A DNA stretch of 64,000 bases from the human T2T-CHM13v2.0 reference genome, Homo sapiens (GCF_009914755.1 NC_060935.1); one strand, 5' to 3'. Shown: positions 35,121 through 64,000, numbered from the stretch's first letter. Made by a program: numbers and translations. Notes: generated from the sequence alone by a model not told the origin.

Positions 35121-35415
35121 AAACTTTTATAATTTAATGACATCATTTTGTTTTGTTTTGTTTTTTTCTTTCATTTTTATTATTTACTAGTTTCTTTTTT
35201 TTCTGTTTTTATTATACTTTAAGTTTTAGGGTACATGTGCACAACGTGCAGGTTTGTTACATATATAAACATGTGCCATGTTGGTTTGCTGCACCCATTA
35301 ACTTGATATTTAACATTAGGTATATCTCCTAATGCTATCCTTCCCCCCTGCCCCCAACCCATGACAGGCCCCGGTGTGTGATGTTCCCCTTCCTGTGTCC
35401 ATGTGTTCTCATTGT

Positions 35416-38400
35416 TCAATTCCCACCTATGAGTGAGAACATGTGGTGTTTGGTTTTTTGTCCTTGCGATAGTTTGCTGAGAGTGATGGTTTCCAGCTTC
35501 ATCCATGTCCCTGCAAAGGACATGAACTCATCATTTTTTATGGCTGCATAGTATTCCATGGTGTATATGTGCCACATTTTCTTAAACCAGTCTATCATTG
35601 TTGGACATTTGGGTTGGTTCCAAGTCTTTGCTATTGTGAATAGTGCCACAATAAATATACGTGTGCACGTGTCTTTATAGCAGCATGATTTATAATCCTT
35701 TGGGTATATACCCAGTAATGGGATGGCTGGGTCAAATGGTATTTCTAGTTCTAGATCCTTGAGGAATCGCCACACTGACTTCCACAATGGTTGGACTAGT
35801 TTACAGTCCCACCAACAGTGTAAAAGTGTTTCTATTTCTCCACATCCTCTCCAGCACCTATTGTTTCCTGACTTTTTAATGATCGCCATTCTAAATGGTG
35901 TGAGATGGTATCTCATTGTGGTTTTGATTTGCATTTCTCTGATGGCCAGTGATGATGAGCATTCTTTCATGTGTCTGTTGGCTGCATAAATGTCTTCTTT
36001 TGAGAAGTGTCTGTTCATATCCTTTGCCCACTTGTTGATGAGGTTGTTTGTTTTTTTCTTGTAAATTTGTTTGAGTTCATCGTAGATTCTGGATATTAGC
36101 CCTTTGTCAGATGAGTAGATTGCAAAAATTTTCTCCCATTCTGTAGGTTGCCTGTTCACTCTGATGGTAGTTTCTTTTGCTGTGCAGAAGCTCTTTAGTT
36201 TAACTAGATCCCATTTGTCAATTTTGTCTTTTGTTGCCATTGCTTTTGGTGTTTTAGACATGAAGTCCTTGCCCATGCCTATGTCCTGAATGGTATTGCC
36301 TAGGTTTCCTTCTAGGGTTTTTATGGTTTTAGTTCTAACATTTAAGTCTTTAATCCATCTTGAATTAATTTTTGTATAAGGTGTAAGGAAGGGATCCAGT
36401 TTCAGTTTTCGACATAAGGCTAGCCAGTTTTCCCAGCACCATTTATTAAATAGGGAATCCTTTCCCCATTTCTTGTTTTTGTCAGGTTTGTCAAAGATCA
36501 GAGAGTTGTAGATATGTGGCATTATTTCTGAGGGCTCCGTTCTGTTCCATTGGTCTATATCTCTGTTTTGGTACCAGTACCATGCTGTTCTGGTTACTGT
36601 AGCCTTGTAGTATAGTTTGAAGTCAGGTAACATGATGCCTCCAGCTTTGTTCTTTTGACTTAGGATTGACTTGGCAATGCTGGCTCTTTGGTGGTTCCAT
36701 ATGAACTTTAAAGTAGTTTTTTTCCAATTCTGTGAAGAAAGTCATTGGTAACTTGATGGGGATGGCATTGAATCTATAAATTACCTTGGGCAGTATGGCC
36801 ATTTTCATGATATTGATTCTTCCTACCCATGAACATGGAATGTTCTTCCATTTGTTTGTGTCCTCTTTTATTTCATTGAGCAGTGGTTTGTAGTGCTCCC
36901 TGAAGAGGTCCTTCACATCCCTTGTAAGTTGGATACCTAGGTATTTTATTCTCTTTGAAGCAGTTGTGAATGGGAGTTCACTCATGATTTGACTCTCCAT
37001 TTGTCTGTTATTGATGCATAAGAATGCTTGTAATTTTTGCACATTGATTTCATATCCAGAAACTTTGCTGAAGTTACTTATCAGCTTAAGGAGATTTTGG
37101 GCTGAGACAATGGGGTTTTCTAGATATACAATCTTGTCATCTGCAAACAGGGACAATTTGACTTCCTCTTTTCCTAATGGAATACCCTTTATTTCTTTCT
37201 CCTGCCTGACTGCCCTGGCCAGAACTTCCAACACTATGTTGAATAGGAGTGGTGAGGGGGCATCCCTGTCTTGTGGCAGTTTTCAAAGGGAATGCTTCCA
37301 GTTTTTGCCCATTCAGTATGATATTGGCTGTGGGTTTGTCATAGATAGCTCTTATTATTTTGAGATACATCCCATCAATACCTAATTTATTGAGAGTTTT
37401 TGGCATGAAGGGCTGTTGAATTTTGTCAAAGGCCTTTTCTGCATCTATTGAGATAATCATGTGGTTTTTGTCATTGGTTCTGTTTATATGCTGGATTACA
37501 TTTATTGATTTTCATATGTTGAACCAGCCTTGCAATGCAGGAATGAAGTCCTCTTGATCATGGTGGATAAGCTTCTTGATGTGCTGCTGGATTCGGTTTG
37601 CCGGTATTTTATTGAGGATTTTTGCATCGACGTTCATTGGGATATTGGTCTAAAATTCTCTTTTTTTGTTGTGTCTCTGCCAGGCTTTGGTATCAGGATG
37701 ATGCTGGCCTCATGAAATGAGTTAGGGAGGTTTTCCTCTTTTTCTATTGATTGGAATAGTTTCAGAAGGAATGGTACCAGCTCTTCCTTATACCTCTGGT
37801 AGAATTTGGCTGCGAATCCGTCTGGTCCTGGACTTTTTTTTGGTTGGTAAGCTATTAATTATTGCCTCAATTTCAGAGCCTGTCATTGGACTATTCAGAT
37901 ATTCAACTTCTTCCTGGTTTAGTCTTCGGAGAGTGTATGTGTTGAGGAATTTATCCATTTCTTCCAGATTTTCTTGTTTATTTGCATAGAGGTGTTTGTA
38001 GTATTCTCTGATGGTAGTTTGTATTTCTGTGGGATCGGTGGTGATATCCCCTTTATCATTTTTTATTGCGGCTATTTGATTCTTCTCTCTTTTTTTCTTT
38101 ATTAGTCTTGCAAGCAGTCTGTCAATTTTGTTGATCTTTTCAAAAAACCAGCTCCTGGATTCATTGATTTTTTAAGGGTTTTTTGTGTCTCTATTTCCTT
38201 CAGTTCTGCTGTGATCTTAGTTATTTCTTGCCTTCTGCTAACTTTTGAATGTGTTTGCTCTTGCTTCTCTGGTTCTTTTAATTGTGATGTTAGTGTGTCA
38301 ATTTTAGATCTTTCCTGCTTTCTCTTGTGGGCATTTAGTACTATAAGTTTCCCTCTACACACTGCTTTGAATGTGTCCCAGAGATTCTGGTATGTTGTGT

Positions 38401-39241
38401 CTTTGTTCTCACTAGTTTCAAAGAACTTCTTTATTTCTGCCTTCATTTCATTATGTACCCAGTAGTCATTCAGGAGCAGGTTGTTCAGTTTCCATGTAGT
38501 TGAGCAGTTTTGAGTGAGTTTCTTAATCCCGAGTTCTAGTTTGATTGCACTCTGGTCTGAGAGACAGTTTGTTATAATTTCTGTTCTTGAACATTTGCTG
38601 AGGAGTGCTTTACTTCCAACTATGTGGTCAATTTTGGAACAGGTGTGGTGTGGTGCTGAAAAGAATATATATTCTGTTGATTTGGGGTGAAGAGTTCTGT
38701 AGATGTCTATTAAGGCTGCTTGGTGCAGAGCTGAGTTCTATTCCTGGATATCCTTGTTAACTTTCTGTCTCACTGATGTGTCTAATGTTGACAGTGGGTT
38801 GTTAAAGTCTCCCATTATTATTGTGTGGGAGTCTAACTCTCTTTGTAGGTCTCTAAGGACTTGCTTTATGAATCTGGGTGCTCCTGTATTGGGTGCATAT
38901 ATATTTAGGAAAGTTAGCTCCTCTTGTTGAATTGATCCCTTTACCATTAAGTAATGGCCTTCTTTGTCTCTTTTGATCTTTGTTGGTTTAAAGTCTGTTT
39001 TATCAGAGACTAGGATTGCAATCCCTGCCTTTTTTTGTTTTCCATTTGCTTGGTAGATCTTCCTTCATCCCTTTATTTTGAGCCTACGTGTGTCTGTGCA
39101 CATGAGATGGGTTTCCTGAATACAGCACACTGATGGGTCTTGACTCTTTATCCAATTTGCCAGTCTGTGTCTTTTAATTGGAGCATTTAGCCCATTTACA
39201 TTTAAGGTTAATATTGTTATGTGTGAATTTGATCCTGTCAT
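35416..39241 (-). pseudogene. L1 ORF2p (endonuclease / RT / Cys-rich domain), disrupted
   Basis: Fragments 38738-38947 (EN), 37137-37460 and 36623-37234 (RT, FADDK), 35416-36633 (405 aa with CWRGC...HCWWDC); frameshifts and stops between them. Confidence 0.92.
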
Positions 39242-62500: not shown

Positions 62501-63417
62501 TAGACCTAAAACCACAAAAACCCTAGAAGAAAACCTAGGCAATACCATTCAGGATATAGGCATGGGCAAGGACTTCATGTCTAAAACACCAAAAGCAATG
62601 GCAACCAAAGCCAAAATTGACAAATGGGATCTAGTTAAACTAAAGAGCTTCTGCACAGCAAAAGAAACTACCATCAGAGTGAACAGGCAACCTACAGAAT
62701 GGGAGAAAATTTTTGCAATCTACTCATCTGACAAAGGGCTAATATCCAGAATCTACGATGAACTCAAACAAACTTACAAGAAAAAAACAGACAACCCCAT
62801 CATCAAGTTGGCAAAGGATATGAACAGACACTTCTCAAAAGAAGACATTTATGCAGCCAAAAGACACATGAAAAATGCTCATCATCACTGGCCATCAGAG
62901 AAATGCAAATCAAAACCACAATGAGATACCATCTCACACCAGTTAGAATGGTCATCATTAAAAAGTCAGGAAACAACGTGCTGGAGAGGATGTGGAGAAA
63001 TAGGAACACTTACACTGTTGGTGGGATTGTAAACTAGTTCAACCATTGTGGAAGACTGTGTGGCGTTTCCTCAGGGATCTAGAACTAGAAATACCATTTG
63101 ACCCAGCCATCCCATTACTGGGTGTATACCCAAAGGATTATAAATCATGCTGCTATAAAGACACATGCACACATATGTTTATTGCGGCACTATTCACAAT
63201 AGCAAAGACTTGGAACCAACCCAAATGTCCAACAATGATAGACTGGATTAAGAAAATGTGGCACATATTCACCATGGAATACTATGCAGCCATAAAAAAT
63301 GATGAGTTCATATCCTTTGTAGGGACATGGATGAAGCTGGAAACCATCATTCTCAGCAAACTATTGCAAGGACAAAAAACCAAACAATGCATGTTCTCAC
63401 TCATAGGTGGGAATTGA
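59600..63417 (+). pseudogene. L1 ORF2p, disrupted
   Basis: EN 59600-60220 (MTGSNSHITILTLNVNGLN...GDFN); 582-aa open stretch 60720-62468 ([17 protein letters not shown]); C-terminal fragments to 63417. Confidence 0.92.
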
Positions 63418-64000
63418 ACAATGAGAACACTTGGACACAGGAAGGGGAACATCACACACCGTGGCCTTTTGTGGGATGGGGGAGGGGGGAAGGATAGCAT
63501 TAGGAGATATACCTAATGTAAATGACAAGTTAATGGGTGCAGCACACCAACATGGCACATGTATACCTATGTAACAAACCCGCACGTTGTGCACATGTAC
63601 CCTAGAACTTAAACTATAATAATAATAATAAAAAGAAAAAAGAAAAGTGACCTAGAGAGAAGGGGGTTTGGATAATAATATTCAGTTCCAAAGTCACTCA
63701 CTGCTACCAAAAACTCTAGCAGGAATCAAAACCACCTCTTTTCCTAAAACAATGGAACTAAAATTTCTGGGCTAGAATTCCACCAGAAAATTTCCAGAAT
63801 TTCCGGAGTTATAATTGCTCACTTGCATGAGTCGCTGATCAAAGTGTCCTTGGCTGATTTTCACTGGCAGTCATCCTCATTTCATAGGCATCTGATTCAC
63901 TTCAGCCAGCCTTCAAGTCCCACACCCTCCTTCGTCATCAGCTAAGATTACCCTCATCAGACTGTGTTTCTCATGATACTTAGAGACAAAGAATTCACCA

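What the first reader, a model, noticed from the sequence alone, without database searches (positions are those of the whole stretch)
35196..63639. Two independently inserted full-length L1s form a 6-kb inverted repeat and appear to have exchanged sequence (gene conversion or inversion toggling)
Seen: a minus L1 (35196-41367) and a plus L1 (57507-63639) lie head-to-head around a 16.1-kb spacer. Each has its own intact TSD and different termini (5' gggtagagccaagatgg vs ggggggcggttccaagatgg; 3' cctaaaac vs cctagaac), so they are two separate insertions. They nevertheless share many departures from the L1PA consensus as I recall it: RT FADDK for FADDM (37133-37135 / 61704-61706), KTATRQG for KTGTRQG (37275 / 61560), ETSE for ETNE (38411 / 60421), GKLI for GKFI, DLVK for DLIK (36201 / 62631), IYDEL for IYNEL (36080 / 62757), ORF1 IQTMPQRYSL, a cluster in the inter-ORF spacer (ttataaagatcattgatgctaggatgaaattgcaacaa, ~39271-39310 / 59531-59568), and 3'UTR aaggatagc (35341 / 63491). 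A 180-nt block (36061-36240 vs ~62598-62777) differs at only 3 positions. Inference: post-insertion arm-to-arm exchange, i.e. a palindrome-like structure built from two transposons.
Basis: partly seen in the sequence, partly recalled or inferred. Interest (0 to 1): 0.8.

Follow-up and report, generated by a model that had tools for sequence, protein, structure and literature searches.

The report
Two neighbouring L1s swapped short patches
Two old, dead L1 retrotransposons that landed separately 16 kb apart in opposite directions have copied several short patches of sequence from one another, an ordinary kind of repeat-to-repeat gene conversion, but they have not become a homogenised palindrome.

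Summary
A minus-strand L1 (35196-41367) and a plus-strand L1 (57507-63639) lie head-to-head around a 16.1-kb spacer, each with its own target-site duplication.

Overall they are only 92.5% identical. That is no closer than unlinked copies are to either one.

They belong to two successive subfamilies. At 22 diagnostic columns, A has the younger state at 19 and B the older state at 20. So they are not siblings or parent and daughter.

They nevertheless share variant combinations found nowhere else in this 3.1-Gb genome:
- a 38-mer in the inter-ORF spacer with five changes (2 matches at up to 3 mismatches);
- an ORF1 25-mer;
- a 161-nt identical ORF2 block.

Windowed trees make them sisters in 5 windows and not in the others.

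They were not seen together in the copies examined.

Best reading: patchy interlocus gene conversion, a known process. Inversion toggling is untested.

The parts
35196..41367 (-). L1 'A', full length, younger-type subfamily ('X'), decayed
   Evidence: It carries the X state at 19 of 22 diagnostic columns. Its longest stop-free frame on the sense strand is 441 aa.
57507..63639 (+). L1 'B', full length, older-type subfamily ('Y'), decayed
   Evidence: It carries the Y state at 20 of 22 diagnostic columns. Its longest stop-free frame is 589 aa.
35180..35195 (.). TSD of A, copy beside the poly(A) end
   Evidence: It matches 41368-41383 at 15 of 16 bases.
41368..41383 (.). TSD of A, copy beside the 5' end
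57493..57506 (.). TSD of B, copy beside the 5' end
   Evidence: It matches 63640-63653 at 14 of 14 bases.
63640..63653 (.). TSD of B, copy beside the poly(A) end
41368..57506 (.). 16,139-nt spacer between the two 5' ends
   Evidence: Coordinates. It holds older L1 fragments at about 42460-44420.
59504..59568 (+). Exchanged patch 1 in B: 65-nt run identical to A, inter-ORF spacer, with five shared changes (cols 2070, 2077, 2092, 2097, 2102)
   Evidence: the five states occur in 0-3 of 54 unlinked copies each; the 38-mer 59531-59568 has only 2 matches in the genome at up to 3 mismatches, A and B; the partner is the best hit. A and B are sisters in cols 1901-2200, support 0.97.
39273..39337 (-). 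Exchanged patch 1 in A
   Evidence: A also carries the Y-type state at col 2084 inside this patch.
59118..59142 (+). Shared ORF1 3'-end haplotype in B (1660C with 1679A)
   Evidence: 2 exact matches in the genome (A and B). 12 copies have only 1660C and 11 have only 1679A. A and B are sisters in cols 1601-1900, support 0.84.
39698..39722 (-). Same haplotype in A
60267..60489 (+). Patch 2 in B, ORF2 5' part: 2826G, 2872T, ETSE (2964T/2966G), GKLI (3031C)
   Evidence: The two unlinked copies that share the ETSE 34-mer lack 2826G and 3031C. A and B are sisters in cols 2651-3000 (support 0.85) but not in 3001-3350.
38347..38569 (-). Patch 2 in A
61508..61715 (+). Patch 3 in B, reverse-transcriptase region: 4105C (KTAT), 4126C, 4173G, 4187A, 4249A (FADDK)
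   Evidence: Three of the best-scoring unlinked copies share 1, 3 and 2 of the five states. A and B are sisters in cols 4041-4300, support 0.975.
37124..37329 (-). Patch 3 in A
62612..62772 (+). Patch 4 in B: 161 nt identical to A, with 5179G (DLVK) and 5302G (IYDEL)
   Evidence: Of 344 genomic matches at up to 3 mismatches, only A and B have none. None of the 8 closest unlinked copies has both variants.
36066..36226 (-). Patch 4 in A

Best explanation
Two L1PA elements from successive subfamilies inserted independently, 16 kb apart and head-to-head. B is the older type and presumably came first. A is the younger type. Afterwards, DNA repair or recombination used one copy as a template for the other. 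This is interlocus (non-allelic) gene conversion. It happened either as several short events or as one long heteroduplex repaired in patches.

The exchange moved private mutations of one copy into the other in at least four patches: the ORF1 3' end plus inter-ORF spacer, the ORF2 5' part, the RT region and the ORF2 3' part. The more diverged 5'UTR and ORF1 5' half were left untouched.

Most of the exchange was old. Both copies went on decaying, so today the arms are no more alike than unlinked copies. Both elements are dead, and the exchange has no evident function.

Shown here: independent insertion, different subfamilies, shared haplotypes unique in the genome, and mosaic phylogeny. Inferred: the mechanism, its direction, its timing and the number of events.
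For: 1. Independent origin. Each element has its own TSD. At 22 columns that separate two groups of unlinked copies, A has the X state at 19 and B the Y state at 20. At 17 columns A is X while B is Y. Five unlinked copies are graded intermediates, and the 24 younger-looking copies in the set are almost wholly X. So Y precedes X, and A and B sit at opposite ends of that series.

2. Shared haplotypes that are unique in the whole genome (exhaustive pattern counts):
- The spacer 38-mer has 2 matches at up to 3 mismatches. As a measure of the scan's reach, a 26-mer from ORF2 finds 3845 matches at up to 1 mismatch.
- The ORF1 25-mer has 2 exact matches, against 12 and 11 copies that carry one of its two transversions alone.
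- The 161-mer has 2 matches at 0 mismatches, 1 at 1 mismatch and 62 at 2 mismatches. None of the 8 closest unlinked copies has both of its variants.

3. The shared variants were not seen together in the unlinked copies examined. Three of the best-scoring unlinked copies of the RT patch share 1, 3 and 2 of 5 states. The two copies with the ETSE block lack 2826G and 3031C. No unlinked copy is in both the KTAT 100% list and the FADDK 100% list.

4. Excess sharing. The pair has 9 exclusive shared sites, top of 104 cross-subfamily pairs with mean 0.79.

5. Mosaic trees. A and B are sisters in cols 1601-1900 (0.84), 1901-2200 (0.97), 2651-3000 (0.85), 4041-4300 (0.975) and 5101-5400 (0.78). They are far apart in 669-1600, 2201-2650, 3001-3350 and 3351-3660.

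6. Shared rare sites lie in cols 1660-5349. There are none in 446-1659, where 6.6 events would be expected (P about 0.001). That region has the lowest A-B identity, where homology-dependent exchange should fail.

7. Gene conversion between transposon copies within about 10 kb is described in print for Alu (passages read in PMC8230782 and PMC6598467).
Against: - There is no overall homogenisation. A-B distance equals or exceeds the mean X-Y distance. The partner is absent from the 40 scored hits in the full-length, 5'UTR and 3'-end searches.
- Shared rare sites do not sit in longer identical runs than random identical sites (mean 42.3 vs 37.2 nt, P = 0.19). So there is no general sign of recent exchange.
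- The 161-nt run alone is not unusual. In cols 446-3700, 5% of 253 pairs have a longest identical run of about 149 nt or more, and the largest is 180.
- There are no shared indels. All 22 indel events differ between the copies.
- One unlinked cross-subfamily pair (L029-L030) has 8 exclusive shared sites, four of them in one 7-column cluster (3200-3206) beside an A-B indel, so the null distribution has a tail.
- Subfamily-discordant columns (2265, 2730, 2736, 3009, 3530) alternate with shared sites. This calls for at least five tracts, or patchy repair of one tract.
- The three columns where the X/Y typing of the pair agrees (2084, 2967, 3436) also vary among other copies, so direction is not established.
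- For columns beyond about 3700 I had no comparators of the same subfamilies. There, rarity rests on genome-wide counts only, and one 'rare' state (4173G) turned out to be common (71 copies).
- The X and Y groups were seeded with 8 columns where A and B differ, so those 8 (6 of them among the 22 diagnostic columns) are circular evidence.
Confidence: 0.78

Rival explanations
1. No exchange. The shared variants are recurrent mutations at mutable sites, or markers of small source lineages, and the pair shares them by coincidence.
For: Most single variants occur in unlinked copies: 36 (2356A), 23 (4105C), 12 (2826G), 108 (3666C), 8 (FADDK) and 71 (4173G). Variants 5179G and 5302G occur singly in 3 and 5 of the 8 closest copies. 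In the 208-nt RT patch one unlinked copy outscores the partner (349 vs 346 bits). In the 301-nt spacer query three do. One unlinked pair reaches 8 exclusive shared sites.
Against: The five-change spacer 38-mer has no third copy within 3 mismatches in 3.1 Gb. The 1660C+1679A pair and the 161-mer are also unique. The variants were not found together in the unlinked copies examined (vs 61). The expected chance sharing is about 1 site per pair, while 9-10 are seen. That the only two carriers lie 16 kb apart would be a coincidence of about 1 in 100,000 for random insertion sites (my arithmetic: about 50 kb out of 3.1 Gb).
Confidence: 0.1
2. Common descent. A and B are siblings from one rare source element, or one is the retrotransposed daughter of the other, so the shared variants were inherited.
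For: Shared rare variants are spread over 3.7 kb at low density, interspersed with many differences, as inheritance followed by decay would give. No recent-tract signal was found.
Against: A and B differ in the X/Y sense at 17 of 22 subfamily-diagnostic columns, with graded intermediates between the two types. There are no shared rare sites in cols 446-1659. Their 5'UTRs have largely different closest relatives: only 2 copies are common to the two lists of 39. They are not sisters in 669-1600 or over 669-3660 as a whole.
Confidence: 0.04
3. Both copies were converted by a third L1 that is now lost or was not sampled, rather than by each other.
For: This cannot be excluded from one genome. L1 copies are abundant, and ectopic repair from distant L1s is reported (recalled, not read here).
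Against: No extant copy carries the spacer cluster. It needs two events per patch with the same lost donor. Proximity of A and B would then play no role and would be a coincidence.
Confidence: 0.05

Closest known systems
Non-allelic gene conversion between neighbouring Alu elements (Aleshin and Zhi 2010, as described in PMC8230782 and PMC6598467; passages read)
   Same: Independent insertions of one repeat family lie a few kb apart. They share non-diagnostic mutations. Exchange depends on distance and identity.
   Different: Here the partners are 6-kb L1s of two subfamilies, 16 kb apart. That is beyond the roughly 10 kb range quoted for Alu. The evidence is several patches within one pair rather than a genome-wide statistic.
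L1 gene conversion reports (Burton et al. [quoted passage not shown]
   Same: An L1 copy acquires sequence of another L1 after insertion.
   Different: I did not read that paper. From its title, it concerns replacement of an element at one site, not patchy exchange between two neighbours.
Inverted L1 pairs that mediate inversions (PMC2603318; bioRxiv 10.1101/2021.12.20.472354; passages read)
   Same: Two L1PA elements lie in opposite orientation around a spacer of kilobases, and pairwise identity is above 90%.
   Different: In that study, L1 pairs flanking inversions have a median identity of 97.2% and a median inversion size of 5.6 kb. This pair is 92.5% identical with a 16.1-kb spacer. No inversion is shown here, and the TSDs fit the original orientation.
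Sex-chromosome palindromes kept alike by arm-to-arm conversion (recalled, not read here)
   Same: Inverted arms of kilobases exchange sequence.
   Different: Those arms arise by duplication and stay nearly identical. These arms are separate insertions, 7.5% different, with no net homogenisation.

Membership tests
Full-length L1 (L1PA-type) retrotransposon insertion | Target-site duplication flanking each copy | tested here: met
   A: 15 of 16 bases alike. B: 14 of 14 alike.
Full-length L1 (L1PA-type) retrotransposon insertion | About 6 kb, A-rich 3' tail, collinear with thousands of genomic L1 copies from 5'UTR to 3'UTR | tested here: met
   The two are 6172 and 6133 nt long. A-rich tails are seen. 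Full-length matches to unlinked copies come from 36,340 and 37,101 first-look candidates. The named subfamily (L1PA number) was not determined, because no Dfam or RepeatMasker was at hand.
Full-length L1 (L1PA-type) retrotransposon insertion | Intact ORF1 and ORF2 (needed only for an active element) | tested here: not met
   The longest stop-free frames are 441 aa (A) and 589 aa (B). An intact ORF2 is about 1275 aa (recalled). Both copies are dead.
Interlocus (non-allelic) gene conversion between dispersed repeats | Partners are paralogues of independent origin | tested here: met
   They have separate TSDs and belong to different subfamilies.
Interlocus (non-allelic) gene conversion between dispersed repeats | Shared derived variants that other family members lack | tested here: met
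   Three haplotypes are unique in the genome. Single variants are not unique.
Interlocus (non-allelic) gene conversion between dispersed repeats | Phylogenetic incongruence along the sequence, with unaffected flanks | tested here: met
   A and B are sisters in 5 windows and apart in the others. The 5'UTR and 3' end are closer to unlinked copies.
Interlocus (non-allelic) gene conversion between dispersed repeats | Before-and-after states in orthologous loci of other species | not testable with these tools
   No primate genomes other than this assembly were available.
Palindrome under concerted evolution | Arms kept nearly identical, much closer than unlinked paralogues | tested here: not met
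   Identity is 92.5%. A-B distance is equal to or above the mean X-Y distance.
Recurrent (toggling) inversion between inverted repeats | Spacer found in both orientations among haplotypes or species | not testable with these tools
   Only one haplotype is held. The matched TSDs show the original orientation or an even number of flips.
Sibling copies of one minor source lineage | Same subfamily over the whole length, and shared variants found together in unlinked copies | tested here: not met
   No unlinked copy is in both 100% lists.

The most novel reading that the evidence does not exclude
The pair is still recombining. On this reading the 161-nt block with no difference is a recent (ape- or human-lineage) conversion. 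The alternation of exchanged and unexchanged sites is the footprint of one long heteroduplex repaired in patches during an inversion of the 16-kb spacer. If so, L1 pairs that are 7% diverged and 16 kb apart remain substrates for exchange and inversion far longer than the surveys of inversion-flanking pairs suggest.
Probability: 0.15. Interest if true: 0.55.

Novelty: new member of a known kind. Interest (0 to 1): 0.33.

Why it matters
The pair is a clean, well-bounded example of a known process: old L1 copies do not evolve strictly independently. Patchy exchange between neighbours moves private mutations from one copy to the other. This can mislead subfamily assignment, age estimates from divergence, and inference of source lineages.

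The case also shows that exchange can leave shared haplotypes unique in the genome without making the copies measurably more alike overall. Distance-based screens for conversion would therefore miss it. It does not reveal a new mechanism and has no evident function.

Tried and rejected
- Full-length own-genome searches. The first look scores only 40 of about 37,000 candidates and did not include the partner, so ranks from these are weak. As a result I could not fetch the 3' halves of same-subfamily copies.
- The 29 copies turned out to be mostly younger subfamilies (identical runs up to 1466 nt between them). They are poor comparators for 'rare' states beyond column 3700.
- A control query without rare variants found nothing, because its words are too common for that search. 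No positive control of that kind exists.
- A run-length test for recent tracts gave P = 0.19.
- A search for shared indels found only one candidate, and that was an alignment artefact.
- Three columns where the X/Y typing of the pair agrees were considered as pointers to the direction of transfer. I dropped them because other copies vary there too.
- A paper search for L1-specific conversion phrases found one reference entry only. The library is partial, so this does not show that the topic is absent from print.

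
Full report
ANATOMY. The window holds two full-length L1 elements in opposite orientation with their 5' ends facing each other. A is 35196-41367 on the minus strand. B is 57507-63639 on the plus strand. The spacer is 16,139 nt. Each has its own target-site duplication. For A these are 35180-35195 and 41368-41383, alike at 15 of 16 bases. 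For B they are 57493-57506 and 63640-63653, alike at 14 of 14. Both copies are decayed: the longest stop-free sense frames are 441 aa in A and 589 aa in B. The matched duplications also mean that in this assembly the spacer is in its original orientation, or has been flipped an even number of times.

HOW ALIKE ARE THE ARMS? A MAFFT alignment has 6191 columns, 456 mismatches and 22 indel events covering 77 columns. That is 92.5% identity. In 200-column windows identity is 82-86% in the first 600 columns and mostly 88-97.5% downstream, with 82.5% in columns 1201-1400 and 90.3% in the last window.

The window's own genome can be searched, so I projected 57 unlinked L1 stretches onto this alignment. 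28 of them cover about columns 400-3700. The other 29 mostly cover 1282-6191.

The partner is not unusually close. In columns 446-3700, 5 of 20 unlinked copies are closer to B than A is, and 12 of 21 are closer to A than B is. With BLAST tables alone, 39 unlinked copies per search match better than the partner does in three regions:
- the first 600 nt of B: 88-89% for unlinked copies;
- the first 600 nt of A: 87-90%, against 82-86% for A-B in 200-column windows;
- the last 526 nt of B: 94-96%, against 90-95.5% for A-B.

So the arms are not being kept alike.

TWO SUBFAMILIES. The 28 copies of the first set fall into two groups, which I call X and Y. 22 columns between 669 and 3530 separate them. 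A has the X state at 19 of these and B the Y state at 20. At 17 columns A is X while B is Y. Five copies are graded intermediates. The 24 younger-looking copies of the second set, which share identical runs of up to 1466 nt with each other, are almost wholly X. Y is therefore the older type and X the younger, and A and B lie at opposite ends of the series.

Two caveats apply. The groups were seeded with 8 columns where A and B differ, and 6 of those are among the 22, so the other 16 are the independent evidence. I also could not name the subfamilies, because no Dfam was at hand. Even so, the result excludes the idea that A and B are siblings or parent and daughter.

WHAT THEY NEVERTHELESS SHARE. 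28 columns between 1660 and 5349 carry a state shared by A and B but present in at most 10% of the unlinked copies. One more lies at 6042. There are none in 446-1659.

Counted as sites held by exactly two sequences, A-B has 10, top of 253 pairs with mean 1.1. Among cross-subfamily pairs it has 9, top of 104 with mean 0.79. The null has a tail: the unlinked pair L029-L030 has 8, four of them in one 7-column cluster (3200-3206) beside an A-B indel.

GENOME-WIDE COUNTS. Pattern scans of the 3.1-Gb assembly are exhaustive. As a measure of reach, a 26-mer gave 3845 matches at up to 1 mismatch. Three shared haplotypes have no third copy:
- The 38-mer in the inter-ORF spacer, with five changes in 33 nt, has 2 matches at up to 3 mismatches. 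The nearest other copy shares 2 of the 5 changes.
- The ORF1 25-mer with 1660C and 1679A has 2 exact matches. 12 copies have only the first change and 11 only the second.
- The 161-nt block identical in A and B has 344 matches at up to 3 mismatches: 2 at none, 1 at one and 62 at two. Of the 8 closest unlinked copies, 5 have 5302G, 3 have 5179G and none has both.

By contrast, most single variants are not private:
- 2356A: 36 unlinked exact 77-mers among 40 scored.
- 4105C (KTAT): 23.
- 2826G: 12 of 3845.
- ETSE block: 2.
- 3666C: 108.
- FADDK block: 8.
- 4173G: common, 71 copies by my count of the rows.

These frequencies, about 0.3-3%, are what recurrent mutation among thousands of decaying copies would give.

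The variants were not found together in the unlinked copies examined. Three of the best-scoring unlinked copies of the 208-nt RT patch share 1, 3 and 2 of its five states. The two copies with the ETSE block lack 2826G and 3031C. No unlinked copy is in both the KTAT and the FADDK 100% lists.

MOSAIC. FastTree trees on alignment windows put A and B as sisters in these columns:
- 1601-1900 (support 0.84)
- 1901-2200 (0.97)
- 2651-3000 (0.85)
- 4041-4300 (0.975)
- 5101-5400 (0.78)

They put them far apart in 669-1600, 2201-2650, 3001-3350 and 3351-3660. In 3661-4040, 4301-5100 and 5401-6170 the two fall in small groups with other older-type copies. Subfamily-discordant columns (2265, 2730, 2736, 3009, 3530) alternate with the shared sites.

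INTERPRETATION. Common descent is excluded by the subfamily difference and by the clean 5' region. Chance is excluded by the haplotypes that are unique in the genome and lie 16 kb apart. What remains is direct transfer between the two loci, that is, interlocus gene conversion. It happened either as at least four or five short events or as one long heteroduplex with patchy mismatch repair.

The absence of exchange in the 5' 1.6 kb fits the lower identity there. The X-Y difference alone is about 1.9% there, against 0.3-0.7% further on (my arithmetic).

Most of the exchange looks old:
- A-B distance in the exchanged region equals the usual X-Y distance.
- Shared sites do not lie in longer identical runs than random sites (P = 0.19).
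- No indel is shared.

The 161-nt block may be a later event. A run of that length is not rare by itself: in cols 446-3700, 5% of 253 pairs have a longest identical run of about 149 nt or more. Direction is not settled.

COMPARISON WITH PRINT. Conversion between neighbouring transposon copies is established for Alu, with elevated rates within about 10 kb (passages in PMC8230782 and PMC6598467). For L1 I saw only a reference entry (Burton et al. 1991) and a general remark in a 2026 preprint (PMC13192797).

Inverted L1 pairs are known to mediate inversions. In one survey, 21 of 22 such pairs were more than 90% identical, with a median of 97.2% and a median inversion size of 5.6 kb (bioRxiv 10.1101/2021.12.20.472354; also PMC2603318). 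This pair sits at the low end for identity and has a larger spacer.

The finding is thus a new example of a known process, not a new kind of structure.

LIMITS. Only one genome and one haplotype were available, with no outgroup species. BLAST tables score only 40 first-look candidates per search.

Noticed in passing
window 42460-44420: Older L1 ORF2-like fragments lie in the spacer. They are inverted relative to B and 71-79% complementary to B's 60837-62826 (pairs I8, I15, I21-I23).
   Followed up: no
L029 (G000:C6:6896756-6900055) and L030 (G000:C5:63111176-63114475), alignment cols 2985-3396: Two unlinked copies of different subfamily type share 8 sites that no other aligned copy has. Four of them lie in one cluster at 3200-3206 beside an indel. 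This may be an alignment artefact plus a small lineage, or exchange with a third copy.
   Followed up: partly
alignment cols 1048-1060 (B side near window 58540; ORF1 5' part): One of B's three 13-nt gaps relative to A is also present in unlinked copies L008, L013, L029 and L030. It is therefore a family polymorphism, not a private deletion of B.
   Followed up: partly
window 40768-41367 (A 5'UTR): Most of A's 39 best unlinked 5'UTR matches (about 577-587 nt in all but one row) span about 13 nt less than the 600-nt query. A therefore seems to carry about 13 extra nt there, at alignment cols 324-336.
   Followed up: no
L039-L046 (loci): Several copies retrieved with the full-length query are very young L1s. 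They share identical runs of 760-1466 nt with one another.
   Followed up: no
G000:C24 (five places listed): Four of the 11 copies that carry 1679A alone, and one of the 12 with 1660C alone, lie on contig C24 within about 8 Mb. This is probably duplicated L1-bearing sequence rather than independent mutations.
   Followed up: no
window 41094-41294 and 63301-64500: The RefSeq 'silencer' lies inside A's 5'UTR. The 'enhancer' covers B's 3' end and its flank. Neither was examined.
   Followed up: no
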